Shown here piece by piece: positions 16,385-62,592 of a stretch of DNA of 64,000 nucleotides. The notes under the pieces are model-generated. The model worked only from the letters and a program-made list of their open reading frames with translations. It was not told the DNA's origin and searched no databases. Source of the stretch: a bacterium (GTDB lineage Bacteria; Patescibacteriota; Dojkabacteria; SC72); contig JAIORF010000102.1 in assembly GCA_021108295.1 (NCBI GenBank), forward strand, positions 226,681-290,680, written 5' to 3'. Both the position numbers and the translations under genes were made by a program. How positions within the stretch are numbered: the first letter of the stretch is position 1; each line of letters begins with the position of its first letter.

Positions 16385-19300
16385 TTACTCTTCTTGCTTG
16401 TTACTTAGTATTACGTATGTTGTGGTAACACCTAGTGCAAGGATTATTAGTAGGATGTACCAGTATTTTTGCCAGAAGTTTCTCGTGTCAATTCCTGCTA
16501 TATCGAATTGTGTTTCGTCTTGGTCTTCTGATACTGTTACAGCGAGTACGTCTCCTATGTCAATGTTTTTAGGTAGGTTTTCTGAGTCTACAGAGATGTT
16601 GTAGTCTCCTGGGCATAGGTATGTTTCCCAGTAGCCGTTTTCGTCTGTAGTTATTTCTTTTACCGTAATTTCATTGTCGTTGTATGGTATGAAGATTTTG
16701 AGGGATATATTAGCTAGTGCTTTCTCATTGTCTTCTTTTTCACCATTTTTGTTTTTGTCTATGTACAGATATCCAAAGAGTTTCTTAGTTGTCTCGCAGC
16801 TGTTTATTCTGTCTAAGAGTCCTTGTATGTCGTCGTCACTACCTAGTACCTCGTCGTCTGGTACGTAGGAGTCTGCTAGGAGGGCATCTCCACTTCCTGT
16901 ACCGTCTGCATAGTATCTGTAGTCTCCTGTACCTGCTACATCTCCTTCTGGAGGGGCATCTACCGTTATATCGAAGCTGTCAGTTCCAATGTCTCCGTCT
17001 GTATCGATTACAGTTACTGTACATGTGTATGTCCCTTCTGTTGTAGGATCAAATGTTGTTGTATCTGTAGTTCCTGTGCAGTCATCGCTCCAGAGGTATG
17101 TGAATGGTGCGTTACCGTCAGTTAGAGTAGTTGTGAGTGTTATTGGGTCGTCTCCTTCTACTGCAGTGTTTGTACCTTGTATTGTAATTGTTGGTGCGTT
17201 GTTTGATACAGTGATCTCTATTGTGTAATCATCACATTCTCCTTCTCCTTGATCAACATCAGATTCACATACTTCAAATTGTGCAAAGTATGTTCCTTCA
17301 TTGATGTAGGTGTGTGCGAATGTGAGTGTTTCTCCTGGTATGTCTGTTGTATCATCAAAGCTTGCTGTTCCTTCTGGAAGGAAGGAGTATGTCCAAGGTG
17401 CATCATCTGCATGTTCTTCTCCACTAGCATATGTCATGTAGCTTGGGTCTGAGAATACAGCTTCGAAATTTATTGTTTCTCCTTCTGTGATAGCTATTGC
17501 ATCTGATGTGAAGGAGTCAATAATTGGAGCTACGTTAGTGATAGTGATGGTTAGTGTTTCTTCTGGACTTGGATTTCCTGCTAGGTCTTCTGCATGGTAT
17601 GTGATGGTGTATACTCCTTCTGGTATGTAGAAGGTGTCTATAGTTAGAATATCTTCGCCAAAGTATGCTAGGGCATATTCTTTGACTAAGTCAGAGATAT
17701 TTATAGTTTCTGATAAACCAGAGAGAGCTTTTGTATCAAAGAATGTACCTAGATCAACATTCGAAAGTTCATAGTGTACATTTTGAAGTCCGGTTTCATC
17801 TGTAACTTCAGCTAGTACATCTGGAATATTGTCTCCTTCTTCAAGGTCTAGGGTATCAATAATATCTTCTATCTCAGGTGGTGTGTCATCGTATGTTATT
17901 TGACAACTACCTTCTAAAGTTTCTGCTGATAAAGCCCATTCTGATATGTTTCCTGCTTTATCAATTGTTCTAACTGCAAATCCGTATGTTCCTTCATTTG
18001 GTGTCCAACTGCCATTGTATTCAAAGATTGATTCATCGAATCTTCTCTCGTCAATTCCTTGACTCCCATTTGGTGCGTTGAAGGATGAGTATTCGTAGTA
18101 ATCAAAGTTTGTATCTGTACTATCATCCCAATCTGGATGCATCCCTTGTATTGGTGAGTAGGCTCCACATTCGAAGACTATACTGTGATCTGAGCGTAGT
18201 AGTCTGCGTAAGCCAGATGGTGTGTCAGGTACAGTATTGTCTACAGTTATAGTTATTACATGCTCTGAATCTCCATCGAGTTCCCTATTTCCTGCTAGAT
18301 CTCTAGCTGCTAATCTGATTTGATATTCTCCATCAGGATATCCTGTTGTATCCCAAGTATAGATGACTGTTTCACCGAATTCAGGGCCATATACTGTTTC
18401 TTGCTCTAATCGTAGAGAGAAATCGTGTACATCTACTCCTCCTGGGTATATTGATATGTTGTAGTGACTTAGGTTTGTGTCTGTGACAAATCCGGAAATA
18501 TCTACCACTCCTTTTACAAAGTCATTATCAGCAGGATCTGTTATACCTACTACTGGAGCAATTGTGTCTACTACGAAGTGTAATCCTAAGACATCTCTAA
18601 ATTGATGTATAGAAGGAATATCTTTTCTGATAGCGTTGTCATATACATGGTGTGCCATGTAGTATTCTCCATCTTGGAGTGATGCTATACAGTTAGTAAA
18701 TTCTATCCTTTCTGATGTTTCATTGTATGTAACACCATTTAGATGTACTAAGTTTGGTTCACTTCTCCAACTGCAGTATGCTAGTTTTCCATCATTACTA
18801 AATCCAAAGCTTCCATCATCTTGTGCCTGAAAGATTACGAATGAATCTTTGAGTAATTCAGATGAAGGTAGATCGTCAGTGTATGATCCGGTGAATGTAA
18901 GTTGACCAATATTGTTTACAAATGTAATCGGATCTGTGACAACATCAATTTCTGCACCATCTTTATATTGTATATATGTTGCTCTTGGAGCTACAGTATC
19001 AACAAAGAGATCTTGTGTTATGGTTGTAGTATTTTCTGCATTGTCTGTTATAACTGCTGTAATAGTGTGTTGACCATCTGGAATGTCTATAGAAAATACT
19101 GATTCCCAAGCATTTCCTAATATTGTAGTTGTACTTGGTATTCCATCAATAGTTACTAAGACTGATGCTACTCCACTACGTTCGTCGTCTGCAAGTCCTT
19201 CTATTGTAGGAAGATCTTCGTTAATAATCCATTCAGTGATGTGATACACAGTTCCATTGTTTGAGTTAACCATCCTTATTGAATCAATACTTCCGGCAGG

Positions 19301-22300
19301 ATCTATTGAGTCCATAGTTATTTTTCTTGCATCGGCCCAGACTCCTACATTTCCTGCAAGGTCAACGCCTCTTACTTGCCAGTAGAATGTAATATTATCA
19401 TTGTGTACATCTCTATATTTTACAGTTCTAGTTGTTTCATATATCAGATCACAAAATCCTTCTGCTGTAGGATTGTTCCAACAGCTTCTGTAGTCATAGT
19501 GTTCAACATCTGTAGCATCAGTATCCCAAGTTTGTCTAACAATTGTGTCGTTTGTAAAGTAGTTATCAATTGGAGATGTTAATTCTACTATTGGAGGAGT
19601 TGTGTCAATTGTAATAGTTATATCAGTAGCTCTACTCCAATTTTTAGCTAGATCTCTACCTTGAGCTCTCAGACGATATACTCCATCTACTGCTGGATCA
19701 AAGGTGTAGCTGTAACTGGTGTCTTGAGAGTTATTGTTATATCCTGAGTTCCATGTTTCTCCTTCTAATTTCCATTTAAACCTAAAATTGTTCATGGTTT
19801 CATTTGTATGAGCACTTAGTAGGACTGGAGTATTGTGAAGACTGTCATCATCTGGTGTGTCCCAAGTTATAACAGCAGGTGTTGTATCTATATTAAATGG
19901 TCCGTAGTGTGCTGTAGAAGTGATGTTTCCTACATTGTCCATGGTTCTAATATTAAACCACCATTGTCCGTCTGTTAGTGCTGAACTTGTTACAGTGTTC
20001 TCACTTGCGTCTAGCCAGTTTGATGGATCAATAGCAGGGGTTTCTTCTGTGTTAGAGAAAGAGTAGTAATAACCTGCAATTCCACTTAATCCGTAATCAT
20101 CTGCTCCAGAGAAGGCTACTTCAATGGTATTGTCTTTTGAATATTCATCTACTTCATGACTTGAGCTAAATGTTGTAGGGTCCTGTGGGGCTTGCATATC
20201 CCATGTGAATGAGTCTGAGCGTCCAACCCCAGGTCTTATGTGTACTTGATCCCATGCATATGGAGTTACGGTATATTCTACTCCATTTCTAAATGTTGAA
20301 TATGGATATGGCCCTGGATAGGTCCACATATTAGTCCCTAGTACTCTATGGAAACTTCTTGGATTGATATATCTTGTCCAGTTCCAAAATCCTGGCATAT
20401 TGTTCCAGTAGTAATTATCTGTACCTCTTTGTATAGTGAGTTTTACAGATGAAATATCACTTACAGTATCATGTGCCTTTCCAATAATCTCTCCAAAGGG
20501 TACCCATGTTTGTGGACCATAGAAATCTTCTTGAACAAGGACTTTAACACTTGGGAGTTTTGCATCTACGGTTCTTCCTAATTGTGTACCCTCTCCAGTA
20601 TTCCCTGCATTATCAGTTACCCTGACATTGATAGATAAGGTTTCTGCATCTTGCAATCGTCCAATACGAAATGTACAGAATCTCCGGTGATAGTCTCCTG
20701 CGTACCAATTGATACCATCTAAAGTATATTCACATGATCTTCCATTTATCCCTGAAAGGGAGTCTTTAACTCTTGCACTTCCAGAGAAGCCTGTAAATCC
20801 ATTTACATATTTATCTACATAGTCCATAGTAAGATGTATTGTTCCTACTTTAGGTTCTGTAGTATCAAATGTGATATTTGTCATGACTGGACTCTGTTCT
20901 TCATTCCCTAGAGCATCAAATGCCGATGCCTTTATATCAAAAGTTCCATCTTGTACGGGTGTCCAAACGTATGACCAGTTAAAAGGTGTTGGACTAATAG
21001 ATACAGCTGGATTTAGTATCGTTGTTATTGGTTTCCATTCTGTTTCATGAGATGGTTTGTAGTAAAGATTTACACCTTTAACATGACTAAACTTGTCAAC
21101 TGAGTATCCAGATATTTTAATTGGAGAGTTAAATACTCCATTTGAGATATCTGGTCTAAATGTAGATACAGGAGCACTGTTATCAACAGTTAGCTCTACC
21201 CAATCTACAGAATCGTTTATTACCTCTGGATCACTTATTACAGGTGCTTCATTAGGGTCTTTATTCCCGGCTTTGTCTCTAGCTTCTAGCTTTATTGTAT
21301 ATACTCCATCATCCACTCCAGTGGTATCCCAATCAAATGTTGGTAATACAACAGGTCCATCATTATATACGGTTTGTGGACCAGCAATTGTTGTACCTAA
21401 AGCATCAACTACTACGAACCAGTAATGTGAAAGATTTAGGTCTGAAACTTCCCCTTCTATTGTTTGTAAACCTGCAACTATATTTCCATCGTCGTGTGAT
21501 GCTACTTCAACTTTTGGAGGAATACTGTCAAGTATTATCTGACAGCTACCTGCTAATGATTCTTCTGTTAAAGCCCATGCTGATGCATTTCCTGCTTCAT
21601 CAACTGCTCTTACTGCATATCCATACATCCCATCTGTAGGGGCTACCCAACTATTAACAAATTCTGAAGTGTAAAAGACCTCTTCGTCTAGTCCTTGGGC
21701 TCCACCAGGGTGGAAAGAGGAATATTCATAGTGACTTAAATCACCTTCTGGATTATTGTCCCAATCAGGGATTAATGCTTGTCTAGGAGAGTAGTCTCCA
21801 CAAGCGTAAATATCTCCATCATGATCTCTCCATTCTAGACCTATTGGTCTAGCTGGTGCTGTATTATCAACTGTAATCTTTACTTCGTCTGTTCTGGCCC
21901 AGTTCCCTGCAATATCTTTACCCGCTGCATAGAAGTAGTAATCTCCATCATCCATTACATAGCTAGGATCGCCTCCCCATCTTTCTGCATCTAGAGTGTT
22001 TAAGCTCCAATTAAAGACAGTTCCATTGTCATAAACATAATGATATCGTCTATCTGGTGAGACATTGGAGTAAGTTTGTCCTTCTGCTCTCCACCAGAAG
22101 TTAATGTAGTCTAAATCTTCAGTTCCAGTAGCTTGTAAATCTACAATGCCAGCGTGTAATGAATCAATTACTGGTGAGTCTAGTGTAATTGTTGGTCTTG
22201 TTCTATCATATGTAACTTTACAGTCATTACTCCAATCAGAAACAGCATCAACACTCTCGTCTAAAATGCTATTGCTATCTATATCTACCCAAGCTCTTAC

Positions 22301-23461
22301 TCTAGTATTCCATTCTCCCTCTGTTCCTTCTGAACTACCGAAAGATGAAAACGGAGTGTAATTATTTGTGTATGTACCTCCATCTGTTGTCCAAGTACCA
22401 CTTTCTGGCACCATCCATTCTCTTTGATACAAGACATTTGCTGGAGCATTTAGTAGCTCCCAGTTTTGTGAGATTCTCCCTCCATTTCCATAAGTTGGAT
22501 AGTCTCCATTTGTAGTTGAACCGCAAGCTAGATCTACTGGTCTTTCTCCTGGTGTAGCTGATTTAGACCTTATATTCCAACCAAGGTTTGTAGGTGCAAG
22601 GATACGTATTGTATCTTCAGTACCAGCAGCATCAACAGCCTCTTGTATTGTGTCATAGCAGTATGTATCACTTCCAACTAATTCTACCGTACAGGTAGCG
22701 TTTACTTCTGTAGTTCCCTCAGTTATTCCTGCAGGTATACTTGGTACCACTATATAGATTGTAAAATGATTTAACCCTTCTATCTCTACAATATCTCCTT
22801 CTATGCTCACCCCTTCTTCTATCTCTGTACCACCATCTAATAGGTCACTCCTACTCTCTGCGTACACAACATCTACATCATTTGATGTAGTAGGAAGTGT
22901 GAGATCATACTCATAAGTACCATCTACCATATCCGTAGTAATATCATAAGCAGTGTTTGAGATAGCACCAAGTACTTCTACTTCTTCCTGTGTAAGAATA
23001 ATTTCATTAATTGTTAGATAACCACTTTCTTCTGGTAATTGGGTAAAGGATAAAGAAACAGCACCATTTTGTGGTGCCATGTATACTTCTCCTAAAACCA
23101 CTACATCGCTTGTAGTGGAGCTACTTCCATTCTCTATCCAAATGGGTCCTGTAGATATCCCCTCGTCTAATATATCCTCTGATTCGTCAAGAGGAGGTAT
23201 GAGAGCATCTAATATGTCTACTGATTCTTCTAATGGGATTGTTCCAACAACATCCAATATCTCTTCTACTTCATCTGAAGGTAGAGTTTCAACTTCCTCT
23301 TCAACAAGAAGATTTTCAACAACCTCTGTGTGAGGTAATTGATCTATTTCCTCTGCAATTACAATCGCAGGGAAGAATACACTGGAAGTTAATATGGATA
23401 ATAGGAGCAGAACATTGGGAACCGAGGCAGATAATTTAATGATGGCTTTCTTAATTTTCAT
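16385..23461 (-). CDS. giant cell-surface protein (2358 aa) with Ig-like, PKD-like and Cna-B-like domains and a C-terminal TM anchor
   Basis: It has an N-terminal signal or TM segment. There are many about 100-aa Ig-like repeats with a recurring D-G-x-Y...A-x-D-x-AGN motif and ITVDNT(A/V)P linkers. Two about 120-aa paralogous inserts are present. A PKD-like segment reads NNAPTITIQG...FTYLWSDD. A Cna-B/SdrD-like domain reads GYLYIDKNKNGEKEDNEKALANISLKIF...DENGYWE. The C-terminal TM helix plus charged tail is YWYILLIILALGVTTTYVILSNKQEE. Confidence 0.8.
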   Translation of the reverse strand: MKIKKAIIKLSASVPNVLLLLSILTSSVFFPAIVIAEEIDQLPHTEVVENLLVEEEVETLPSDEVEEILDVVGTIPLEESVDILDALIPPLDESEDILDEGISTGPIWIENGSSSTTSDVVVLGEVYMAPQNGAVSLSFTQLPEESGYLTINEIILTQEEVEVLGAISNTAYDITTDMVDGTYEYDLTLPTTSNDVDVVYAESRSDLLDGGTEIEEGVSIEGDIVEIEGLNHFTIYIVVPSIPAGITEGTTEVNATCTVELVGSDTYCYDTIQEAVDAAGTEDTIRILAPTNLGWNIRSKSATPGERPVDLACGSTTNGDYPTYGNGGRISQNWELLNAPANVLYQREWMVPESGTWTTDGGTYTNNYTPFSSFGSSEGTEGEWNTRVRAWVDIDSNSILDESVDAVSDWSNDCKVTYDRTRPTITLDSPVIDSLHAGIVDLQATGTEDLDYINFWWRAEGQTYSNVSPDRRYHYVYDNGTVFNWSLNTLDAERWGGDPSYVMDDGDYYFYAAGKDIAGNWARTDEVKITVDNTAPARPIGLEWRDHDGDIYACGDYSPRQALIPDWDNNPEGDLSHYEYSSFHPGGAQGLDEEVFYTSEFVNSWVAPTDGMYGYAVRAVDEAGNASAWALTEESLAGSCQIILDSIPPKVEVASHDDGNIVAGLQTIEGEVSDLNLSHYWFVVVDALGTTIAGPQTVYNDGPVVLPTFDWDTTGVDDGVYTIKLEARDKAGNKDPNEAPVISDPEVINDSVDWVELTVDNSAPVSTFRPDISNGVFNSPIKISGYSVDKFSHVKGVNLYYKPSHETEWKPITTILNPAVSISPTPFNWSYVWTPVQDGTFDIKASAFDALGNEEQSPVMTNITFDTTEPKVGTIHLTMDYVDKYVNGFTGFSGSARVKDSLSGINGRSCEYTLDGINWYAGDYHRRFCTFRIGRLQDAETLSINVRVTDNAGNTGEGTQLGRTVDAKLPSVKVLVQEDFYGPQTWVPFGEIIGKAHDTVSDISSVKLTIQRGTDNYYWNNMPGFWNWTRYINPRSFHRVLGTNMWTYPGPYPYSTFRNGVEYTVTPYAWDQVHIRPGVGRSDSFTWDMQAPQDPTTFSSSHEVDEYSKDNTIEVAFSGADDYGLSGIAGYYYSFSNTEETPAIDPSNWLDASENTVTSSALTDGQWWFNIRTMDNVGNITSTAHYGPFNIDTTPAVITWDTPDDDSLHNTPVLLSAHTNETMNNFRFKWKLEGETWNSGYNNNSQDTSYSYTFDPAVDGVYRLRAQGRDLAKNWSRATDITITIDTTPPIVELTSPIDNYFTNDTIVRQTWDTDATDVEHYDYRSCWNNPTAEGFCDLIYETTRTVKYRDVHNDNITFYWQVRGVDLAGNVGVWADARKITMDSIDPAGSIDSIRMVNSNNGTVYHITEWIINEDLPTIEGLADDERSGVASVLVTIDGIPSTTTILGNAWESVFSIDIPDGQHTITAVITDNAENTTTITQDLFVDTVAPRATYIQYKDGAEIDVVTDPITFVNNIGQLTFTGSYTDDLPSSELLKDSFVIFQAQDDGSFGFSNDGKLAYCSWRSEPNLVHLNGVTYNETSERIEFTNCIASLQDGEYYMAHHVYDNAIRKDIPSIHQFRDVLGLHFVVDTIAPVVGITDPADNDFVKGVVDISGFVTDTNLSHYNISIYPGGVDVHDFSLRLEQETVYGPEFGETVIYTWDTTGYPDGEYQIRLAARDLAGNRELDGDSEHVITITVDNTVPDTPSGLRRLLRSDHSIVFECGAYSPIQGMHPDWDDSTDTNFDYYEYSSFNAPNGSQGIDERRFDESIFEYNGSWTPNEGTYGFAVRTIDKAGNISEWALSAETLEGSCQITYDDTPPEIEDIIDTLDLEEGDNIPDVLAEVTDETGLQNVHYELSNVDLGTFFDTKALSGLSETINISDLVKEYALAYFGEDILTIDTFYIPEGVYTITYHAEDLAGNPSPEETLTITITNVAPIIDSFTSDAIAITEGETINFEAVFSDPSYMTYASGEEHADDAPWTYSFLPEGTASFDDTTDIPGETLTFAHTYINEGTYFAQFEVCESDVDQGEGECDDYTIEITVSNNAPTITIQGTNTAVEGDDPITLTTTLTDGNAPFTYLWSDDCTGTTDTTTFDPTTEGTYTCTVTVIDTDGDIGTDSFDITVDAPPEGDVAGTGDYRYYADGTGSGDALLADSYVPDDEVLGSDDDIQGLLDRINSCETTKKLFGYLYIDKNKNGEKEDNEKALANISLKIFIPYNDNEITVKEITTDENGYWETYLCPGDYNISVDSENLPKNIDIGDVLAVTVSEDQDETQFDIAGIDTRNFWQKYWYILLIILALGVTTTYVILSNKQEE
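17867..18244 (-). repeat. intragenic repeat copy 2 (paralogue of the 21506-21871 domain)
   Basis: Same as copy 1. Coordinates were derived by counting residues and are approximate to within about 10 nt. Confidence 0.6.
21506..21871 (-). repeat. intragenic repeat copy 1 (about 120-aa domain, DNTAPARPIGLEW...GSCQIILDSIPPK) inside the giant protein gene
   Basis: Residues about 531-652 of the giant protein. They align along their full length with residues about 1740-1865 (DNTVPDTPSGLRR...GSCQITYDDTPPE), with conserved CG.YSP, PDWD, YYEYSSF, QG.DE, GTYG.AVR and AGN.S.WAL motifs. Confidence 0.6.
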
Positions 23462-23598: not shown

Positions 23599-24141
23599 TT
23601 ACACTACTACTTTATACAAAGAACAACCTAAATACCCCCCAATGATCCCAGTAATTAACTGCATATATCCCATACTTGAAAGAAATATTCTAGGTAAATT
23701 AAAATGATTTACGAAAATATATGCAAAGAGAAAAAGTAACAAAGCTTTACAAACACTACCAACCACAACACTTAAAAAACCAGCCCTAAGATACTTGATT
23801 AGCAATATGTATATTGCATTACCTATAAATATCACAGGTAAGAAATATATCAAAAAGAAAGTAGCTCCTCCAAAAAGAACACTACTACCAAAAGCTACTA
23901 CAGAAGGAAGAACTACAGAAGGAAGAGACTTCTTAAACCCTAGCTTAAGCACAGAGAATGTAAGAATCAGATTAACAACACTCCCCACTAAAAACTGTGG
24001 AGATTTAAGCAGTAGAGGTGCACAAACAGATAAACAGGTTAGTAATGTAACCTGAACCCACTCCTTCTTCAATACACTTATCAACCTACTACCATATATC
24101 TCAACACGTTTTAACATACTAAAGTGTATCATGAATATCAT
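23599..24141 (-). CDS. hypothetical polytopic membrane protein
   Basis: 180 aa with 4-5 hydrophobic helices. I recognise no family. Confidence 0.4.
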   Translation of the reverse strand: MIFMIHFSMLKRVEIYGSRLISVLKKEWVQVTLLTCLSVCAPLLLKSPQFLVGSVVNLILTFSVLKLGFKKSLPSVVLPSVVAFGSSVLFGGATFFLIYFLPVIFIGNAIYILLIKYLRAGFLSVVVGSVCKALLLFLFAYIFVNHFNLPRIFLSSMGYMQLITGIIGGYLGCSLYKVVV

Positions 24142-24164: not shown

Positions 24165-25043
24165 ATGATATATTTATCTATGGATCACCTAAAAGTCTGT
24201 GAGAAGATACTTAAGAGTAAGAAAGATACAGTATGTATGCTAGCACCCTCCTTTGTAGCAGACTACGAGTATCCGGACCTCATATACAGATTAAGAGCCT
24301 TGGGATTTGATAAGGTAGTGGAACTTACTTTTGGTGCTAAGATGACCAACCTAACCTACTACGCTATCCTCAAAGAAGATATTGATCGCACTTGGATAGC
24401 CTCTCCATGCCCTACCCTTGTAAACCTAGTTCGAAATAAATACCCTCACCTTATTAAAAACTTAATGCCTGCCCACTCTCCTATGGGTTGTATGTCCTTT
24501 GTTTGTCAAAAAGTTTACCCTAAACACAAACAGGTATTCATTGGACCATGTCTTACAAAGAAGATTGAAGCTCAAGAGCTTGGCACCATAGAGAGTGCGT
24601 TGACATACAAGGAGTTAGAGCAACTGTTTACCAAGTACAAAATTCCGGAGAAAGTGACTGACAGGAAGTATCTAAAGACATTTGATAAGTTCTACAACGA
24701 TTACACCAAGATATACCCAGTATCAGGAGGCCTATCCTCCACATTACATCACAATGAGATTCTAAAGAAGAAAGATATTCTAGTAGAGGAAGGTTTAGGG
24801 AATATAACGAAAATATTTGATGATTTTAAGGATGGGTGGTACAAAAAGTACAAATTCCTAGATTTACTTACATGTGATGGTGGCTGTCTTGGTGGTATAG
24901 GCATGGCTGGACACTTTCCAGTAAGTCAAAGAAAGAAGAGAATATATAAGTATAGAGACTATGCAAGACGTTATGAAAAAGATTTGGGCAGGGCTGGTAA
25001 GAAGATGCATGTAAAGGGTATTGATTTCACAAGAGATTTCTAA
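24165..25043 (+). CDS. [FeFe]-hydrogenase H-domain-like protein (minimal, 292 aa)
   Basis: It matches the three H-cluster motifs of Fe-only hydrogenase large subunits. L1 reads ASPCP (versus TSCCP). L2 reads GPCLTKKIE (MPCxxKxxE). L3 reads LLTCDGGCLGGIGM (MACxxGCxxGGGQ). It also has MLAPSF (versus xAPAVR), FGAKMT (versus FGADLT) and HSPMG. It has no N-terminal ferredoxin-like domains. Confidence 0.55.
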   Translation: MIYLSMDHLKVCEKILKSKKDTVCMLAPSFVADYEYPDLIYRLRALGFDKVVELTFGAKMTNLTYYAILKEDIDRTWIASPCPTLVNLVRNKYPHLIKNLMPAHSPMGCMSFVCQKVYPKHKQVFIGPCLTKKIEAQELGTIESALTYKELEQLFTKYKIPEKVTDRKYLKTFDKFYNDYTKIYPVSGGLSSTLHHNEILKKKDILVEEGLGNITKIFDDFKDGWYKKYKFLDLLTCDGGCLGGIGMAGHFPVSQRKKRIYKYRDYARRYEKDLGRAGKKMHVKGIDFTRDF

Positions 25044-25109: not shown

Positions 25110-25475
25110 ATGTCGACTACTAATAATACTGAAGGGGGAAATCACGAAAATATCCCTGATATATCAAAAATTACTTTAGGAGGGGTTGTTTTTGGCCAAG
25201 AAGCAGGTTGTGAAGTCGGGTTTTTGTCATTGGGATACCTAGGTGCTTCTCTTGGAGAACCCACATTTGTTGAATTTCTTCACCCTTTAGAGGCTGAGAA
25301 TGAAAAGGTGTTGAGAGCATTTCTTGCTTATTGTAAGGGGAAATATGGTGTTGAAAACATAGGGGCAGAGAATGGAGTGTTTTATGGTAAAGAGGTATAT
25401 ATAGGAGGGAAATCAGCTACTATGACTGCTGAGGAGTATAAAATAGCTCGAGAGTCTTTGAAGGAGATAGTTTAG
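25110..25475 (+). CDS. hypothetical protein (121 aa)
   Basis: ORF between the hydrogenase-like gene and the Mur ligase, on the same strand. I recognise no motifs. Confidence 0.3.
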   Translation: MSTTNNTEGGNHENIPDISKITLGGVVFGQEAGCEVGFLSLGYLGASLGEPTFVEFLHPLEAENEKVLRAFLAYCKGKYGVENIGAENGVFYGKEVYIGGKSATMTAEEYKIARESLKEIV

Positions 25476-27894: not shown

Positions 27895-28633
27895 ATTCCG
27901 AACCTTTTAATTTATTATATTCCTCAAGCGTATTGAAAGTGTAGTGTTTTGCTTCGGGCATATAGATACATTTACTAAGTAAATTCCCTTTTCTTGCTTG
28001 TTCGATTAAGTCGTTCTCTCCAAAGAAACCAATAAATTCATCGTTATTAAGTGTTTCCAGAAGGGTTTTACTAAATAGGAAGGTCCCAATATTATTATAG
28101 AACTTTGAAACTTTAGGAATATCCTCCGAATAGAATCTAATGCTTTGATTAATATTAACTCCAACAATGTTATCATCTTGATCACAAACAATTGGAAATG
28201 CCTGCGTTGCAGAGCATTTATTTGAGAGAACCAAAAGATTAGTATCTTTAGAAAATTTATTGAAAAAAGTATCTTTGAACATAAACTTTGTGTATGAATC
28301 ACCATTCTGACCTAGTAACACCTCTATTTCTGGGTGTTGTAGAAAACAGTTTTGAATGGATTTGCCATGACCTATTGGAGTTTTTTCATACACCAACTCT
28401 ATTTCGACGAGTTTTTTAAAGCTATTAATTTGTTTTAAAAATTCATCTTTCCTATAGCTGTAAGATATAAAGATTTTCTCGACATTTTGTTTAATTAATT
28501 TTCTTATATTTAATTCCAACATTGATTCATTGTCCTGAGTCCAAGGGATTAATGGTTTTGGTGTTTTATCTGTAAGAGGTTTAAGTCTTGACCCATGACC
28601 AGAACAAAATATATATGCAGAGAGATTGTGCAT
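27887..28633 (-). CDS. sugar-phosphate nucleotidyltransferase (NTP_transferase family)
   Basis: It has an N-terminal GxGxRLxPLTxxxPKPL motif (CSGHGSRLKPLTDKTPKPLIP). It is 248 aa. Confidence 0.65.
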   Translation of the reverse strand: MHNLSAYIFCSGHGSRLKPLTDKTPKPLIPWTQDNESMLELNIRKLIKQNVEKIFISYSYRKDEFLKQINSFKKLVEIELVYEKTPIGHGKSIQNCFLQHPEIEVLLGQNGDSYTKFMFKDTFFNKFSKDTNLLVLSNKCSATQAFPIVCDQDDNIVGVNINQSIRFYSEDIPKVSKFYNNIGTFLFSKTLLETLNNDEFIGFFGENDLIEQARKGNLLSKCIYMPEAKHYTFNTLEEYNKLKGSEYV

Positions 28634-30738
28634 TAATCCTTAATATACAATTTAGCATCTACTGCTACTACTTTATCCTCTGTTAACATTACAGGGTTAA
28701 TATCCATACTAATTATATGGGGGTATGATACTAACAATCTTTGGATATTCTCTAACATATCTAAAAGTTTTTCTTTTGCTAATGTTGGTCTCCCCCTATA
28801 TCCATCTACTATCATAGAAAGTCTTGTTTCACTGATAGCCTCCAACATATCTTCTCTATTAGTAGGGATTAGTACATGTTTGATATCTTTGTAAACCTCT
28901 GTATAAATGCCACCCTGACCTATTGCTAGAAGATGACCAAAACCTTTACCCTTGTCTTGATATATTTTACTATCCCCTTGTCTAGTAGCTCCTATGAAAA
29001 CCTCTGTATTACTCTTGACCATTTCTTGTATCAATATGTCTGGAGAGGTAGTACCTGTAACCTTAGAGATTGCTTCTCTTAGTTCATAGAACTTAGACTC
29101 AAACTCTGAAATGGTTCTAATGTCTAAGTGTACTGCCTTAAAGTCTGTCTTGTGTGCTAAATCCTTCGAGGTTGCTTTCATTACTACAGGAAACCTGTTT
29201 ATTGAAAACTCTATTGCATTTTCAATATGGGGGGTAATGATTTGTTCTGGTATCACAATATTGTGTTCTTTTAGAATACTTTCTGTAATATCATCAGGGA
29301 GTATGACTGCTTCTGAAGATAAGCATTCCTTTACCTTGTCTATGTGTTTTGCAGAGATTTTAATATCTTTTACCTCTACTACATCCTTTTTGGCGATATT
29401 GTTGTTGTATTTTACCAATTTACCAATTATCTCTATCGTCGCCTCTATGTTACTTGAGGTATATATGTTGTACTCCTTAAGAAGATTCACTCCGCTTTTA
29501 ATGTCGTGGTTACCCAAAAAACATGCAAAGATTGGTTTAGATGTTTTGTTTTGTATTTTAATAATGGCTCTGGCTGTACCTACAATGTCTGTAATGAGTT
29601 GTGGGGTAAGAATTACCAATATACTATCTACTTCCTTATCATCTTCACATATAGAAATTGCTTGTTCAAATCTGTCGGCTAATGCATCTCCTAGGAGATC
29701 AATAGGGTTTTTTACACTAGATGCGCTTGGTAGCTCCTTGAGTAACTTCTTCGTTGTTTTTTCTCCGAGTTCGGATAGGATAAGGCCATGTTTTTCTATA
29801 TTGTCAGTCGCTATGATACCTGGGCCTCCTGCATTGGATACAACTGCGATTTTTTTACCTCTAGGGATTCTTTCATTGCTAATTAATTTCATAATATTGT
29901 AAAGTTCTACAGAACTTTGGGCTTGTATAGCATTTCCTTTATTTATTGCTGTAGTGATTGTGTCATATGAGCTGACTAAGGATCCTGTATGGGATGATAT
30001 CGCTTCTACGGCTTTCTCAGAGCTTCCAGGTGCTATTACCACAAGAGGTTTCTTAGAGGCTTGTGCTAATTTCACAAATTCTTTACCATCTGAGAACTCT
30101 TCCATATAGAGTGCTATTGCTTTAGTATTCTCATCATTCTGAAACATTTCTATCAATTCATTTTCAAAAATATCTGCTTTATTACCAATTGATATGATAT
30201 GGGAGAATCCAAAGTTGTCCTCACATGCCATATCAAGTATGGCTGTACAAAGTGCTCCGGATTGAGAAATAAAGGCTATATCCCCACTACCTGGATTCTT
30301 CCTAGCAAAAGATAAGTTGATATTCTCGTTGTTGTTGATATATCCCAATGAGTTTGGACCAATTAGTCGTATATTTGCGTTTTTGAGTTTCTTAGCAATC
30401 CCTTCTTCTAGTAGCCTACCTTCTTTTCCTGTTTCTTTAAAGCCTGCAGATATGATGACTACAGATTTAACCTTTTTCTCAATACATTGATCAATTACCT
30501 CTTCTACTAGATGGGATGGGATGACAATACAGACTTGATCGAGGTCTTCTTCAATGGAGAGTATGGAAGGGTAAGATTTTCTACCTACGATTTCTTCATA
30601 TTTAGGATTTACTGGGTATACTTTACCATTGTATCCTCCACTAACAAGATTTTGAAGTATGATGGTTGATATTTTCTTTGGATTGGTTGATGCTCCAACT
30701 ATTGCAATCGATCGGGGATTTAAGATATCGGCATTCAT
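28633..30738 (-). CDS. acd: acetate--CoA ligase (ADP-forming), fused alpha/beta subunits
   Basis: It has an N-terminal CoA-binding domain (RSIAIVGASTNPKKIS...YPVNPKYEEI), a succinyl-CoA-synthetase-like ligase-CoA domain and a C-terminal ATP-grasp domain. It is 701 aa. Its start codon shares a base with the stop of the gene upstream of it (KorB, 30738-31592); the shared base is the gene boundary at 30738. Confidence 0.85.
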   Translation of the reverse strand: MNADILNPRSIAIVGASTNPKKISTIILQNLVSGGYNGKVYPVNPKYEEIVGRKSYPSILSIEEDLDQVCIVIPSHLVEEVIDQCIEKKVKSVVIISAGFKETGKEGRLLEEGIAKKLKNANIRLIGPNSLGYINNNENINLSFARKNPGSGDIAFISQSGALCTAILDMACEDNFGFSHIISIGNKADIFENELIEMFQNDENTKAIALYMEEFSDGKEFVKLAQASKKPLVVIAPGSSEKAVEAISSHTGSLVSSYDTITTAINKGNAIQAQSSVELYNIMKLISNERIPRGKKIAVVSNAGGPGIIATDNIEKHGLILSELGEKTTKKLLKELPSASSVKNPIDLLGDALADRFEQAISICEDDKEVDSILVILTPQLITDIVGTARAIIKIQNKTSKPIFACFLGNHDIKSGVNLLKEYNIYTSSNIEATIEIIGKLVKYNNNIAKKDVVEVKDIKISAKHIDKVKECLSSEAVILPDDITESILKEHNIVIPEQIITPHIENAIEFSINRFPVVMKATSKDLAHKTDFKAVHLDIRTISEFESKFYELREAISKVTGTTSPDILIQEMVKSNTEVFIGATRQGDSKIYQDKGKGFGHLLAIGQGGIYTEVYKDIKHVLIPTNREDMLEAISETRLSMIVDGYRGRPTLAKEKLLDMLENIQRLLVSYPHIISMDINPVMLTEDKVVAVDAKLYIKD

Positions 30739-31593: not shown

Positions 31594-33294
31594 TTAGTTG
31601 TGCAAGAAATCTAAAATATCTTCTATAAAGAGTGGTCTTCCATCATATTTGAGTATTCTTTCAGGAATCTCAAACCCACTTTCTTGTTTAATTAGTTTCG
31701 CGAAGTCTCCTGTTTGATTGTTTTCTACAATTACAACCCTAGCTCCTTCCTCATGGAATTCGATTAGTCTTTCATATTTCAGAGGGTAAATATATTGGTA
31801 GTGTAAATATCCAATGTGTGAGTTGTCTTTTAGTATATCTCTTATGGTATTGCCTACACTCCCATATCCCACAAAAACAATTTCGGGGTTTTTATTTCCA
31901 AAATATAGTGGGTCTGGGATTTGCTCTCTTAATGTTTCTGTTTTTCTTAATCGTTTGTCAGACATTTCTACTACCTCATTAGATTGTTCTGTGCTCTCTC
32001 CAGTAATCTTATGCTCATCACTATTTTGTAAGTAGGTAGGGCTATCAGCAGATGGTATCCATCTGGGTGATATTCCACTGTCTGTTATTTCATACCTATT
32101 TTCGCCTGTTGTAATTCCTCTTTCAATCATAGTTGGTTTAGGTAGTTCTTTAATGTTAAAAATTGATTCTGCAATTTGTTTGTCTGTAAGAAGTATTACT
32201 GGTATCTGATATGTTTCTGCAATATTAAAGGCTTCCTGGGTAAGAGTGTAGGCATCTTGTGGGTCGCTTACTGAGAGGACACATCTACTAAACGCTCCAT
32301 GTCCTCCATGCACTGCAAGAGATATGTCTCCTGCTCCAGTCCATGTTGGTAGTCCAGTACCTGCTCCTGCTCTTTGTGCTAGTACAATGATTAGTGGGGT
32401 TTCTGAGATTCCTGCACATGATATTGTTTCGCACATTAGATCAAAGCCTCCTCCAGAGGTTACAGTCATTGCCCTAGTTCCCATATTCATACTTCCCATA
32501 GAGAGTTGTGCTGCAGTAATTTCGTTTTCTGCTTGTTTAATGAGTATGCCCGTTTCTTTGTAGGTGTCTCCAAGATATTTCAAGATTGATGTTGCAGGTG
32601 TCATTGGATATGCATAGAGTGCTCTACATCCTGCTGATATTGCGCCAAGGGATATTGCCTCATTGCCTGTGATATTAAGAGAGTCTTTCCATTTCTTGCT
32701 TGATTTAAATGTAAGTGGTTTGAGTATTTCCTTTTTAATTTGTTCAGAGTTGTAACCAGCTCTCACACACCTTATCTCTGCTCCTAAATCGATGTTTTTG
32801 TCTTTAAAGGTCTCTCTTACAATTTCTTCTAGTGGTTTAGTATCTAGTTCGAGAAGTTTCCAAATGAAGCCTAGTATTACCATATTTGCCATTATCTCTA
32901 TTCCTTCAACCTCTAGTGCCATTTTAACCGTGTCTAGGGATATTAAGGAGATATTGTTCTTTTCGATGTAGTCCTTTTCTTCTTGAGAGAGGTTTAGCTC
33001 TTCTTTGTTATATATTATTACACCATTTGGTGATACAGAAGGAAAATATTCGTGTATTGCGTCTATGTCTAGGACTGATAGGATGTCACAAGTCCTTGAG
33101 GACGAGGCTATTTCTTCTTGTGCTATGTCTATTTGGTATGAGGCCACTCCACCCTTTATTAGTGATGGGTATTCTCTGTATGCAAAGTTGCAAAGTCCAC
33201 TCTCTTTTATTGATTTACTTAGTATCTGTCCTAGTGTATTAATACCCTGTCCGGATTCTCCTCCAAATTTTACAATTAACCTTTGATTAGACAT
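31594..33294 (-). CDS. 2-oxoacid:ferredoxin oxidoreductase alpha subunit (fused gamma-alpha)
   Basis: The N-terminal gamma-type domain is FGGESGQGINTLGQIL. The alpha domain follows. It is 566 aa. It forms an operon with the beta subunit and acd. Confidence 0.85.
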   Translation of the reverse strand: MSNQRLIVKFGGESGQGINTLGQILSKSIKESGLCNFAYREYPSLIKGGVASYQIDIAQEEIASSSRTCDILSVLDIDAIHEYFPSVSPNGVIIYNKEELNLSQEEKDYIEKNNISLISLDTVKMALEVEGIEIMANMVILGFIWKLLELDTKPLEEIVRETFKDKNIDLGAEIRCVRAGYNSEQIKKEILKPLTFKSSKKWKDSLNITGNEAISLGAISAGCRALYAYPMTPATSILKYLGDTYKETGILIKQAENEITAAQLSMGSMNMGTRAMTVTSGGGFDLMCETISCAGISETPLIIVLAQRAGAGTGLPTWTGAGDISLAVHGGHGAFSRCVLSVSDPQDAYTLTQEAFNIAETYQIPVILLTDKQIAESIFNIKELPKPTMIERGITTGENRYEITDSGISPRWIPSADSPTYLQNSDEHKITGESTEQSNEVVEMSDKRLRKTETLREQIPDPLYFGNKNPEIVFVGYGSVGNTIRDILKDNSHIGYLHYQYIYPLKYERLIEFHEEGARVVIVENNQTGDFAKLIKQESGFEIPERILKYDGRPLFIEDILDFLHN

Positions 33295-39194: not shown

Positions 39195-40112
39195 ATGTAT
39201 GATGTTGCAATAATAGGAAGTGGACCAGCAGGATATAGTGCTGGAATATACTCAAGTAGATACCAATTAAAAACCATAATATTTGGGAAAATGATGGGAG
39301 GGACATTGTCGCAAGCTCACAAAGTATGTAACTATCCAGGAATGCAAGATATTGCAGGAATGGATTTAAGTACAAAAATGCATGAACATGCACAAGCCAA
39401 TGGGTGCGAGATGAAATTTGAAAGTATTACTAGTGTAGAAAAGAAAGGAGACACCTTTCTATTACTCAGTGATAGTGGAAATACTTATGAAAGCAAAACT
39501 GTACTGCTCACTACAGGAACCGAGAGGACTAAACTTACAATCCCTAATGAGAAGAAATATCTTGGAAAGGGTCTCTCTTACTGTGCAACCTGTGATGGGA
39601 ATTTCTATAAAGATAAGACTGTTGGTGTAATTGGTGGAAGTAGTGCTGCTACAATGGCTGCTATAATGCTTAGTAATATAGCAAAGCAGGTCTACATCCT
39701 TTATCGAGGTAACGAGCTTAGAGGAGATCCTTCATGGAAAGAGCAAGTCCTCAAGACAGAAAATATACATGTATTACTATCAACCGTAGTTACAGACTTG
39801 CAAGGAGAAGAAAGGCTGGAGTCTCTTAAGCTGAGTAAGAAGTATAAAGAGAGTAATATATTGGATGTAGATGGAGTTTTTGTAGAGATTGGGAGCGAAC
39901 CCAACAAGGATTTACCAATATTGATGGGTATTGAGAGTGATGAGAAAGGATATTTGGAAGTAAATCAAGCACAAAGAGCCAATATTGACGGAATATGGGC
40001 AGCTGGTGATTGTACAACCAATTCTAATGGATTTAGACAGGTCGTAACTGCAGCCTCAGAAGGAGCTATAGCCGCTAATGATATATATCAATACTTAAAA
40101 GGTAGAAGTTAA
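39195..40112 (+). CDS. trxB: thioredoxin-disulfide reductase
   Basis: The FAD motif is GSGPAGYSAG. The redox-active site is CATCDG. The NADPH motif is GGSSAATMA. Confidence 0.85.
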   Translation: MYDVAIIGSGPAGYSAGIYSSRYQLKTIIFGKMMGGTLSQAHKVCNYPGMQDIAGMDLSTKMHEHAQANGCEMKFESITSVEKKGDTFLLLSDSGNTYESKTVLLTTGTERTKLTIPNEKKYLGKGLSYCATCDGNFYKDKTVGVIGGSSAATMAAIMLSNIAKQVYILYRGNELRGDPSWKEQVLKTENIHVLLSTVVTDLQGEERLESLKLSKKYKESNILDVDGVFVEIGSEPNKDLPILMGIESDEKGYLEVNQAQRANIDGIWAAGDCTTNSNGFRQVVTAASEGAIAANDIYQYLKGRS

Positions 40113-43368: not shown

Positions 43369-43395
43369 AATATTTAAATTATAACTGCTCAAGTT

Positions 43396-43518
43396 ATGAA
43401 GAAAGTTCAGAGACAAAGATGCGAGGTATACTCACGAGTTGTGGGATATATCAGACCTGTCAAGCAGTGGAATAAAGGGAAAGTCTCAGAGTTCCATGAC
43501 AGAAAGATGTTTGACTAA
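43396..43518 (+). CDS. 40-aa ORF encoding an NrdD-type glycyl-radical motif (EVYSRVVGYIRPVKQWNKGKVSEFHDRK), in frame with nrdD
   Basis: Translation is MKKVQRQRCEVYSRVVGYIRPVKQWNKGKVSEFHDRKMFD. It matches the conserved NrdD C-terminus (EVYSRVxGYxRPVxxWNxGKxxEFxxRK). It is in the same frame as nrdD but is separated from it by two in-frame stops (TAG 43366, TAA 43375). It ends 2 nt before the nrdG ATG. Confidence 0.6.
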   Translation: MKKVQRQRCEVYSRVVGYIRPVKQWNKGKVSEFHDRKMFD

Positions 43519-43520
43519 AT

Positions 43521-62590: not shown

Positions 62591-62592
62591 CT

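What the first reader, a model, noticed from the sequence alone, without database searches (positions are those of the whole stretch)
24165..25043. Minimal [FeFe]-hydrogenase H-domain homologue lacking the proton-relay cysteine and all accessory Fe-S domains
The 292-aa protein retains the four Cys ligands of the H-cluster [4Fe-4S] subsite. These lie in the conserved contexts (S)PCP, GPCLTKKIE and TCDGGCLGGIG. The first Cys of the canonical TSCCP motif is proline here (ASPCP); that Cys is the proton-transfer residue in CpI-type enzymes. There are no N-terminal ferredoxin-like domains. No hydE, hydF or hydG maturase genes are visible nearby. This combination points to a sensory or regulatory role, a Nar1-like non-catalytic role, or an otherwise atypical hydrogenase rather than a standard H2-evolving enzyme. 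The gene sits close to (about 3.6 kb upstream of) the ferredoxin-dependent oxidoreductase and acd block, so a role in disposing of reduced ferredoxin is still conceivable.
Basis: partly seen in the sequence, partly recalled or inferred. Interest (0 to 1): 0.6.

Follow-up and report, generated by a model that had tools for sequence, protein, structure and literature searches.

The report
Ultraminimal [FeFe] hydrogenase in a CPR bacterium
This small gene encodes a stripped-down hydrogen-producing enzyme of a type described in 2024 only from tiny symbiotic archaea; here it is in a tiny symbiotic bacterium, beside a conserved vitamin-transporter-like membrane protein nobody has explained.

Summary
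The ORF (24165/24180-25043, 292/287 aa) is an H-domain-only [FeFe]-hydrogenase homologue. Its four [4Fe-4S]H cysteines are invariant, Pro replaces the proton-relay Cys (CpI C299), there are no accessory Fe-S domains, and the 64-kb window has no hydE/F/G.

It is not an orphan oddity. It belongs to a radiation of about 280-aa enzymes. The closest relatives (55-81% identity) are Dojkabacteria/WS6 (CPR bacteria). The next tier (39-50%) is DPANN archaea, the lineages in which Greening et al. (Cell 2024) defined "group E" ultraminimal hydrogenases and showed one to bind the H-cluster and evolve H2.

All [2Fe]-pocket residues are conserved. The whole canonical proton pathway is replaced, as in sensory group C, whose H-domains are the nearest multidomain relatives.

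Genomic linkage to 2-oxoacid:ferredoxin oxidoreductase (an operon in DPANN, 0.4-8 kb away in Dojkabacteria) supports fermentative H2 evolution. A sensory or Nar1-like role is not supported.

How the cofactor is made without HydEFG remains open.

The parts
24165..25043 (+). hydA: H-domain-only, group E-type ultraminimal [FeFe] hydrogenase (292 aa; likelier start at 24180 gives 287 aa). Ligand Cys codons: C82 24408-24410, C129 24549-24551, C237 24873-24875, C241 24885-24887. Pro81 (CpI C299 position): 24405-24407.
23599..24141 (-). TM180: divergently transcribed six-helix membrane protein with an ECF-transporter S-component fold and unknown substrate. Conserved immediate upstream partner of minimal hydA genes.
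31594..33294 (-). 2-oxoacid:ferredoxin oxidoreductase alpha subunit (gamma-alpha fusion, 566 aa): the probable source of the low-potential electrons.
   Evidence: TIGR03710 518.5 bits, above cutoff 482.75; PF01558 + PF01855
30738..31592 (-). 2-oxoacid:ferredoxin oxidoreductase beta subunit (TPP and [4Fe-4S], 284 aa). Two-subunit OFOR type with no delta/ferredoxin subunit.
   Evidence: PF02775 + PF12367; NF008820/TIGR02177 below cutoffs; homologues lie directly upstream of hydA in 9 of 43 DPANN loci
28633..30738 (-). ADP-forming acetyl-CoA synthetase (Acd, 701 aa): the ATP-yielding step after OFOR.
   Evidence: PF13380, PF13607, PF13549; TIGR02717 478.5 bits, below its domain cutoff

Best explanation
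The gene encodes a monomeric, H-domain-only [FeFe] hydrogenase of the group E 'ultraminimal' type, here in a CPR bacterium (most likely Dojkabacteria/WS6). Shown: the protein has the H-domain fold with the group A loops deleted. It keeps the four Cys that bind the [4Fe-4S]H subcluster, one of them bridging to [2Fe]H, and every residue known to hold the [2Fe] subcluster and its CN ligands. It lacks accessory Fe-S domains and the entire canonical proton pathway (CpI C299, E279, E282, R286 and S319 are P, Y, I, D and M here). Inferred: the solvent-exposed [4Fe-4S]H takes electrons directly from a reduced ferredoxin, or possibly straight from the [4Fe-4S] of the two-subunit OFOR. Those electrons come from 2-oxoacid (pyruvate) oxidation. 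The H-cluster reduces protons to H2, regenerating the oxidised carrier, so acyl-CoA can be turned into acetate plus ATP by Acd. Protons must arrive by a non-canonical route. The invariant Tyr at the F417 position (Y184), proposed as an alternative relay in TmHydS, and the invariant Tyr at the E279 position (Y65) are candidates. How the [2Fe] subcluster is made or acquired without HydEFG is unknown. The conserved S-component-like neighbour TM180 is functionally tied to the enzyme in some way not yet defined.
For: Family and fold. Closest relatives are about 280-aa proteins of Dojkabacteria (55-81% identity), then of Pacearchaeota, Woesearchaeota, Nanoarchaeota and Iainarchaeota (39-50%). These are the taxa, size and architecture of group E (average 286 aa), whose member Fm held 4.2 Fe per protein, bound [2Fe]adt, gave H-cluster FTIR bands and was bidirectional with a bias to H+ reduction (PMC11216029). 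In the NJ tree Dojkabacteria are monophyletic in 56 of 60 bootstraps, lie inside the minimal radiation next to the DPANN clade, and group C-like sensory sequences sit at the base. Nearest multidomain relatives have group C architectures. Pocket table: A230, P231, S232, C300, P301, S323, P324, P354, C355, K358, E361, G421, G422, C499 and C503 are conserved in 38 Dojkabacteria, 42 DPANN and 12 group C-like sequences; position 299 is never Cys. Loop deletions relative to group A. Linkage to OFOR: an OFORalpha-OFORbeta-hydA operon with 4-nt overlaps in DPANN, with OFORbeta directly upstream in 9 of 43 loci and within 5 kb in 16 of 43; Acd-OFOR lies 0.4-8 kb away in most Dojkabacteria loci with enough sequence. 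Anaerobic lifestyle: NrdD/NrdG. The protein is basic (pI 9.3), as expected for docking an acidic donor. Strong purifying selection: 60-80% identity with 78 invariant columns among Dojkabacteria.
Against: No activity data exist for any bacterial member or for any member with Pro at position 299. In prototypical enzymes, replacing C299 by anything but Asp abolishes or severely impairs activity, and M497L fails to integrate [2Fe]H properly (PMC10055695); this protein has P81 and L235. The pocket (P/G/L/Y at positions 299/353/497/417) is that of low-activity sensory enzymes. No HydE/F/G is in the window or within 10 kb of any of 85 related loci. No ferredoxin gene is in the window. I could not retrieve the characterised Fm sequence, so identity to it, and its residue at position 299, are not established. 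Synteny within Dojkabacteria also includes housekeeping genes such as dCMP deaminase and CTP synthase, so proximity to OFOR in this lineage alone is weak evidence. The tree is neighbour-joining only, and the clade 'Dojkabacteria + DPANN excluding all group C-like sequences' got 21 of 60 bootstraps.
Confidence: 0.65

Rival explanations
1. It is a [4Fe-4S]-only protein in vivo: an apo-hydrogenase that never receives a [2Fe] subcluster because the organism has no HydEFG. It would then act as a small redox or Fe-S protein, functionally analogous to Nar1/NARFL.
For: No HydE/F/G in the 64-kb window or in about 20 kb around each of 85 related loci. Most archaeal genomes with group E also lack maturases (PMC11216029). 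P81, G127 and L235 replace three residues important in prototypical enzymes.
Against: Residues whose only known role is to hold the [2Fe] subcluster and H-bond its CN ligands (A230, P231, S232, P324, K358, E361, G421-G422) are invariant over more than 100 sequences from two domains of life. There is no N-terminal Cys cluster as in Nar1. A group E enzyme from a closed genome that lacks maturases binds [2Fe]adt and is active. Eukaryotes that lack maturases still make active enzymes (cited in PMC11216029).
Confidence: 0.17
2. It is an H2 sensor or regulator: a stand-alone sensory H-domain that signals through a partner protein, perhaps TM180.
For: The closest multidomain relatives are group C sensory or regulatory proteins with PAS, sigma-54 activator or histidine-kinase domains. 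The pocket substitutions match those of sensory enzymes: Pro about 10% at position 299, Gly 51% at 353, Tyr at 417.
Against: No PAS, kinase, HTH or C-terminal FeS (PF04060) domain is present. No regulator recurs among the flanking genes. The operon with OFOR in DPANN suggests metabolic rather than regulatory coupling. Fm is biased to H+ reduction, unlike TmHydS. CPR genomes have very few regulators (general knowledge).
Confidence: 0.08
3. It works in the H2-uptake direction, feeding electrons from host-derived H2 to ferredoxin for reductive 2-oxoacid synthesis by OFOR.
For: [FeFe] hydrogenases and OFORs are reversible in principle. Fm shows both H2 oxidation and H+ reduction currents. Episymbionts live in H2-rich anoxic consortia (general knowledge).
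Against: Fm is clearly biased to H+ reduction. The linked Acd is ATP-yielding in the acetate-forming direction, and no carbon-fixation genes are in the window.
Confidence: 0.07

Closest known systems
Group E ultraminimal [FeFe] hydrogenases of DPANN archaea (Greening et al., Cell 2024, PMC11216029; e.g. 'Fm' from Ca. Forterrea multitransposorum)
   Same: About 280-290 aa, H-domain only, condensed loops, a single [4Fe-4S], all H-cluster ligands, non-canonical proton-pathway residues, usually no HydEFG, genomic association with 2-oxoacid:ferredoxin oxidoreductase. 39-50% identity to DPANN members, and adjacent to them in the tree.
   Different: The host is a bacterium (Dojkabacteria/CPR), whereas group E was described as archaeal and that paper never mentions Patescibacteria. 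Pro is fixed at position 299 (mostly Val in DPANN) and Gly at 353 (mostly Ser or Ala in DPANN). OFOR lies kilobases away on the opposite strand rather than in an operon. An S-component-like membrane protein is the constant neighbour (30 of 36 loci, against 1 of 41 in DPANN).
Group C sensory [FeFe] hydrogenases (HydS, e.g. Thermotoga maritima TmHydS)
   Same: Nearest multidomain relatives by profile score. Same pocket pattern: non-Cys at 299, Gly at 353, Tyr at 417 and Tyr at the E279 position. Canonical proton pathway absent.
   Different: No N-terminal Fer4 domain, no C-terminal PF04060 Fe-S motif, and no PAS, kinase or sigma-54 domain. The metabolic gene context is different.
Chlamydomonas reinhardtii HydA1 (group A, M1 type), previously the smallest characterised [FeFe] hydrogenase
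   Same: H-domain only with no F-clusters. It takes electrons directly from ferredoxin at a surface-exposed [4Fe-4S]H.
   Different: HydA1 is 457 residues (per PMC11216029). It has TSCCP with the relay Cys, M353/M497 and the full proton pathway, and it depends on HydEFG. About 18% identity in the structural alignment.
Nar1/NARFL (eukaryotic cytosolic Fe-S assembly, hydrogenase-like)
   Same: Fe_hyd_lg_C homology. Retains the [4Fe-4S]H cysteines and functions without HydEFG.
   Different: By general knowledge, Nar1 has an extra N-terminal Cys cluster and is eukaryotic. Here there is no N-terminal cluster and the [2Fe]-pocket residues are strictly conserved.
ECF-transporter S-components (RibU, ThiT, BioY, PanT, FolT, CbiM) and the solitary BtuM, for the neighbour TM180
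   Different: No detectable sequence similarity to any Pfam or PDB S-component. No EcfA/EcfT genes in the window. The substrate is unknown, and there is no invariant Cys or His.

Membership tests
Group E ultraminimal [FeFe] hydrogenase | H-domain only, about 286 aa, no accessory Fe-S cluster domains | tested here: met
   287/292 aa. PF02906 is the only domain, covering residues 23-244. No ferredoxin motif. Median length is 284.5 aa in Dojkabacteria and 284 aa in DPANN.
Group E ultraminimal [FeFe] hydrogenase | All H-cluster-ligating cysteines present, with [2Fe]-pocket residues retained | tested here: met
   C82, C129, C237 and C241 are invariant. A27, P28, S29, P106, K132, E135, G188 and G189 are invariant.
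Group E ultraminimal [FeFe] hydrogenase | Condensed loops relative to group A enzymes | tested here: met
   The alignment with a canonical group A repeat shows four deletions, including one of about 45 residues. Foldseek query-normalised TM-scores are 0.67-0.77.
Group E ultraminimal [FeFe] hydrogenase | Phylogenetic placement with DPANN group E sequences, sister to group C | tested here: inconclusive
   Next-closest relatives are minimal enzymes of Pacearchaeota, Woesearchaeota, Nanoarchaeota and Iainarchaeota. The NJ tree places the Dojkabacteria clade (56 of 60 bootstraps) beside them with group C-like sequences basal. However, the published reference sequences (Fm, Na) could not be obtained, the method was NJ only, and the joint clade had 21 of 60 support.
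Group E ultraminimal [FeFe] hydrogenase | Archaeal (DPANN) host, as originally circumscribed | tested here: not met
   The window and its closest relatives are Dojkabacteria/WS6 bacteria. This is a taxonomic circumscription, not a biochemical criterion.
Group E ultraminimal [FeFe] hydrogenase | Binds [2Fe]adt to form an H-cluster and catalyses H2/H+ interconversion | not testable with these tools
   Needs anaerobic expression, semisynthetic maturation, FTIR and H2 assays, as done for Fm.
Prototypical group A [FeFe] hydrogenase | TSCCP motif with the relay Cys (C299) and the E279/S319/E282/R286 proton pathway; M353 and M497 | tested here: not met
   Positions 299, 279, 319, 282 and 286 are P81, Y65, M101, I68 and D72. 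M353 is G127 and M497 is L235.
Group C sensory [FeFe] hydrogenase (HydS) | N-terminal [4Fe-4S] domain plus C-terminal Fe-S motif and a PAS or other signalling domain | tested here: not met
   All are absent from the query and present in relatives P0142, P0146, P0150, P0155, P0158 and P0175.
Nar1/NARFL-like | Additional N-terminal Cys cluster; eukaryotic CIA pathway context | tested here: not met
   There is no N-terminal Cys motif; C12 and C24 are not conserved. The context is prokaryotic.
HydEFG-dependent maturation system | hydE, hydF and hydG present in the genome | tested here: inconclusive
   Absent from the 64-kb window and from the roughly 20-kb neighbourhoods of 85 related loci.
ECF-transporter S-component (for TM180) | Six-helix S-component fold | tested here: met
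ECF-transporter S-component (for TM180) | Sequence membership of a known S-component family; partner EcfA/A'/T module | tested here: not met
   No Pfam, NCBIfam or PDB sequence match. The only ABC ATPase in the window pairs with a MacB/FtsX permease. A solitary mode like BtuM is possible.

The most novel reading that the evidence does not exclude
The S-component-like membrane protein TM180 is a dedicated uptake or capture protein for something the hydrogenase needs. The most radical version is a pre-formed [2Fe] subcluster precursor, or another H-cluster building block, scavenged from the host. That would explain how maturase-less CPR (and perhaps DPANN) episymbionts obtain an active H-cluster. 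The evidence does not exclude this. TM180 stays glued to minimal hydA genes, divergent or overlapping in an operon, across lineages whose hydA is only 37-42% identical and whose other neighbours differ. The organisms lack HydEFG nearby. By general knowledge, apo-[FeFe] hydrogenases can be activated in living cells by externally supplied synthetic [2Fe] complexes. A less radical version is that TM180 tethers the hydrogenase to the membrane. A parallel untested idea is that HydA docks directly on the ferredoxin-less two-subunit OFOR to form a 2-oxoacid:H+ oxidoreductase.
Probability: 0.08. Interest if true: 0.9.

Novelty: new member of a known kind. Interest (0 to 1): 0.45.

Why it matters
If the assignment holds, group E ultraminimal hydrogenases are not an archaeal speciality. 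They are shared by the two great radiations of ultra-small symbionts, CPR bacteria and DPANN archaea. That implies inter-domain gene transfer, and it makes H2 a likely fermentation end product of Dojkabacteria, which are otherwise described as having extremely minimal metabolism (PMC7304191). The bacterial clade provides dozens of natural variants of a 33-kDa H2 catalyst with a fixed Pro at the proton-relay position. These are useful for dissecting alternative proton routes and for engineering small hydrogenases. The conserved S-component-like partner gives a concrete, testable handle on an open question raised by the 2024 work: how these organisms assemble an H-cluster without HydE, HydF and HydG.

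Tried and rejected
(1) I tried to obtain the biochemically characterised Fm and Na sequences. The paper's supplements are not held. A homology search seeded with an Iainarchaeota homologue returned no hit named Forterrea, and cluster look-ups gave only generic names; VVB76289.1 '[uncultured archaeon]' may belong to a CABM* assembly, but that is unverified. No direct identity to Fm can be quoted.

(2) The search for related loci with the most divergent alignment (A3) failed for lack of a conserved stretch. It was repeated with A4.

(4) My first neighbour-distance table mislabelled overlapping upstream genes as downstream. This was corrected after reading the ORFs and recomputed.

(5) The promoter/terminator scan around the divergent 23-47 nt intergenic region was at chance level (9 found against 7.8 +/- 2.7 expected), so no inference was drawn.

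(7) The 121-aa ORF downstream (25110-25475) was considered as a partner. It has no family hit and is absent from other loci except the identical contig, so I rejected it as a conserved partner.

(8) I rejected synteny within Dojkabacteria as proof of OFOR coupling, because dCMP deaminase and CTP synthase are equally conserved neighbours. The OFOR argument rests on the independent DPANN operons.

(9) The radical SAM/SPASM neighbour in DPANN was checked as a possible HydE/HydG. It is TIGR04084 (AF0577 family), not a known maturase, and is absent from Dojkabacteria loci.

(10) P0122 (4,122 aa, 14 matched stretches) turned out to be a eukaryote-like model of seven tandem group A hydrogenases with flavodoxin and FAD domains. 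I used it only as an outgroup.
Full report
THE OBSERVATION

The ORF at 24165-25043 (+) exists and encodes 292 aa. An identical protein annotated in NCBI (P0001, 'hypothetical protein K8R14_04040 [bacterium]') starts at Met6, and several homologues begin 'MDHL...'. The real start is therefore probably nt 24180, giving 287 aa.

Pfam finds one domain, Fe_hyd_lg_C (PF02906), at E = 1.1e-36 over profile positions 4-244 of 245. NCBIfam's best model is the group B monomeric hydrogenase TIGR04105. It scores far below the cutoff (126 against 450 bits) because only the H-domain part of the model (positions 216-458 of 462) is matched.

phmmer against PDB sequences finds only [FeFe] hydrogenases. The alignment with CpI places A79-S80-P81-C82-P83 against T297-S298-C299-C300-P301, and G127-P128-C129-x-x-K132-x-x-E135 against M353-P354-C355-x-x-K358-x-x-E361.

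An AlphaFold2 model built on 27 homologues is confident (pLDDT 86.4, pTM 0.86). In the PDB it matches only hydrogenase H-domains, with query-normalised TM-scores of 0.67-0.77.

- There is no ferredoxin-like domain.
- No hydE, hydF or hydG is anywhere in the window. The only radical-SAM proteins are NrdG and an Rv2578c-family protein, and the GTPase is Obg.
- An Acd-OFORbeta-OFORalpha block lies on the minus strand, starting 3.6 kb downstream.

WHAT IT BELONGS TO

The protein is one of a large, tightly conserved family, with 1,384 hits at E <= 1e-5 in the 90%-clustered database. The best hits are all 268-307 aa, carry only PF02906, and where named come from candidate division WS6 / Dojkabacteria. 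Among 27 of them, 78 columns are invariant, including S80-P81-C82-P83 and the four ligand cysteines.

An exhaustive profile search of 1.84 billion cluster representatives returns about 25 further minimal (250-316 aa) representatives. After those come 550-880-aa proteins whose H-domain begins near residue 66-70. These longer proteins have an N-terminal Fer4 domain, the H-domain, the PF04060 Fe-S motif, and a PAS, sigma-54-activator or histidine-kinase domain. That is the sensory/regulatory 'group C' architecture.

A scan of one genome per GTDB species found 527 loci. The top tier (55-81% identity) is Dojkabacteria. The next tier (39-50% identity, same length) is Pacearchaeota, Woesearchaeota, Nanoarchaeota and Iainarchaeota.

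Greening et al. (Cell 2024, PMC11216029) describe exactly this set as 'group E' ultraminimal [FeFe] hydrogenases. They are monomeric and H-cluster-domain only, with an average length of 286 residues, condensed loops and no accessory clusters. They are found in Iainarchaeota, Micrarchaeota and Nanoarchaeota and are sister to bacterial group C.

One member, Fm, contained 4.2 Fe per protein, incorporated [2Fe]adt and gave H-cluster FTIR signatures. It was bidirectional with a clear bias to proton reduction. That paper does not mention Patescibacteria. I found no paper in the library that describes the Dojkabacteria protein.

A neighbour-joining tree of 77 sequences over 275 columns was rooted on a canonical group A repeat. 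It gives a Dojkabacteria clade in 56 of 60 bootstraps, inside the minimal radiation and next to the DPANN clade, with group C-like sequences at the base. Support for 'Dojkabacteria + DPANN excluding all group C-like sequences' is only 21 of 60. One reason is that a 352-aa Fer4+H-domain protein (P0145), which I had labelled group C-like, falls inside the minimal radiation. I therefore file the protein as a bacterial member of the group E radiation. Whether it is formally group E or a sister lineage needs a proper ML tree with the published reference sequences, which I could not obtain.

THE ACTIVE SITE

I tabulated CpI-numbered positions in 38 Dojkabacteria, 42 DPANN, 22 other minimal and 12 group C-like sequences.

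Conserved everywhere are the cluster ligands (C300, C355, C499, C503) and the residues that surround and hydrogen-bond the [2Fe] subcluster: A230, P231, S232, S323, P324, P354, K358, E361, G421 and G422.

The canonical proton pathway is absent everywhere:
- Position 299 is Pro in 38 of 38 Dojkabacteria. In DPANN it is Val 21, Pro 8, Thr 7, Ala 5 and Asn 1. In group C-like sequences it is Pro 5, Ala 3, Ser 2, Asn 1 and Thr 1. It is never Cys.
- E279 is Tyr almost universally.
- E282, R286 and S319 are hydrophobic or variable.
- M353 is Gly in Dojkabacteria and group C, and Ser or Ala in DPANN.
- M497 is Leu.
- F417 is Tyr.

This matches the literature on sensory enzymes. Cys occupies position 299 in only 17% of them, against Ala at about 43% and Pro at about 10%. 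Gly occupies position 353 in about 51%. The Tyr at position 417 has been proposed as an alternative proton relay in TmHydS (PMC10055695). Proton routes are held to differ between groups (PMC10407848).

Strict conservation of the [2Fe]-binding residues argues that a complete H-cluster is bound. The alignment with a group A sequence also shows the four loop deletions, one of about 45 residues, that make the protein small.

GENOMIC CONTEXT AND MECHANISM

In DPANN loci the hydrogenase gene often follows OFORalpha and OFORbeta on the same strand with 4-nt start/stop overlaps. Examples are L084 (7657-9183, 9180-10004, 10001-10849) and L073. OFORbeta is directly upstream in 9 of 43 loci and within 5 kb in 16. 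Greening et al. already noted this adjacency.

In Dojkabacteria the Acd-OFORbeta-OFORalpha block is on the opposite strand, 0.4-8 kb away, in most loci with enough sequence. The window follows this pattern.

Dojkabacteria also keep dCMP deaminase and CTP synthase next to the gene. Proximity within this lineage alone is thus ordinary synteny, and the functional argument rests on the independent archaeal operons.

The OFOR here is the two-subunit type without a ferredoxin-like delta subunit. No ferredoxin gene is in the window. The hydrogenase is basic (pI 9.3). NrdD/NrdG mark an anaerobe.

The most economical mechanism has four steps, none of which has been demonstrated:
1. 2-oxoacid oxidation by OFOR reduces a ferredoxin encoded elsewhere, or transfers electrons directly.
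2. The exposed [4Fe-4S]H accepts the electrons.
3. The H-cluster makes H2.
4. Acd converts acyl-CoA to acid plus ATP.

A CONSERVED, UNEXPLAINED PARTNER

The divergently transcribed 180-aa ORF at 23599-24141 has no Pfam, NCBIfam or PDB sequence match, and its only sequence homologues are 'hypothetical' proteins.

It lies within 700 nt upstream of hydA in 30 of 36 Dojkabacteria loci. At gaps of 150 nt or less, 22 are divergent and 4 co-directional. It is the most frequent immediate neighbour in an unbiased census (32 loci).

The link survives outside the syntenic block. In L034, L035, L037 and the archaeal L057 it is co-directional and abuts or overlaps hydA, while the other neighbours differ.

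I also ran the test in reverse, starting from distant TM180 homologues found by sequence alone. P0420 (39% identical) overlaps by 14 nt the start of a 261-aa minimal hydrogenase in L086. P0421 overlaps a hydA N-terminus in L089. P0418 lies 2.8 kb from one in L087. Both of the overlapping hydrogenases are only 37-42% identical to ours and also have Pro at position 299.

No EcfA/T module is in the window, and no Cys or His is invariant. Greening et al. list an uncharacterised 'hyd6TM' next to archaeal group A1 hydrogenases in figure legends only. Whether it is the same family could not be tested.

The function of TM180 is unknown. Uptake of a cofactor or precursor, or membrane tethering of the hydrogenase, are hypotheses only.

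VERDICT

The protein is a new, bacterial member of a recently described kind. The main uncertainties are whether an enzyme with Pro at position 299 is catalytically competent, how the [2Fe] subcluster is supplied, and the identity of the direct electron donor. Interest is moderate.

The points that go beyond the 2024 description are the extension to CPR bacteria, which implies CPR-DPANN gene exchange, and the hydA/S-component-like module.

Noticed in passing
L043:4694-5809, L048:10940-12070, L061:5859-6980; also L049, L058, L060, L063, L067, L069, L070, L071, L074: In 12 DPANN loci a ~375-aa radical SAM/SPASM protein of the uncharacterised TIGR04084 (AF0577) family lies immediately downstream of the group E hydA on the same strand (276-317 bits against a cutoff of 225). 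A U32-family protein is often upstream (9 loci). It is not HydE or HydG. It could be a candidate alternative maturase or merely clade synteny. It is absent from Dojkabacteria loci.
   Followed up: partly
L084:7657-10849; L073:7679-10816: DPANN archaea carry OFORalpha-OFORbeta-hydA as a three-gene unit with 4-nt start/stop overlaps and no ferredoxin gene in between. This is compatible with a physical OFOR-hydrogenase complex. The adjacency itself was already noted by Greening et al. 2024.
   Followed up: partly
window 16385-23461 (-): A giant 2,358-aa ORF with an N-terminal hydrophobic segment, a C-terminal transmembrane-like tail and highly acidic repeats, lying about 140 nt from the stop codon of the TM180 gene on the same strand. 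It is probably a CPR cell-surface or attachment protein. A similar >2,000-aa Ig-like-domain protein follows TM180 in L087 and L088.
   Followed up: no
window 25110-25475 (+): An acidic 121-aa ORF (pI 4.8) between hydA and murE with no family match. It is found only in the identical contig L001. Other Dojkabacteria have a dCMP deaminase and CTP synthase at this position.
   Followed up: partly
L078 (contig DAOTCN010000001.1, 389 kb, labelled Candidatus Paceibacterota bacterium): A minimal hydrogenase from a MAG labelled as a CPR bacterium nests inside the archaeal DPANN clade (42% identity to the query). This is either a further inter-domain transfer or a mislabelled or mis-binned genome. Several loci labelled 'uncultured Candidatus Saccharibacteria' (binchicken assemblies) carry Dojkabacteria-type genes and synteny, so those labels look generic.
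   Followed up: no
P0122 (4,122 aa; one search hit 2): A predicted protein with seven tandem group A hydrogenase large+small-subunit units, followed by flavodoxin and FAD-binding domains. It is probably a eukaryotic gene-model fusion or a tandem array. Used only as an outgroup.
   Followed up: partly
window 41284-44204 (+): Anaerobic ribonucleotide reductase NrdD (694 aa, with ATP-cone) and its activase NrdG (TIGR02495), confirming an obligately anaerobic lifestyle. A thioredoxin-reductase-like gene lies at 39195-40112.
   Followed up: yes
L086:4137-5986: In a distant lineage the operon reads MntP-like manganese efflux pump (PF02659), then the TM180 homologue, then a 261-aa minimal hydrogenase, all co-directional and tightly packed.
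   Followed up: no
window 61607-63609 (+): A C-5 cytosine DNA methyltransferase (62593-63609) preceded by an unannotated 327-aa ORF. This may be a restriction-modification pair.
   Followed up: no
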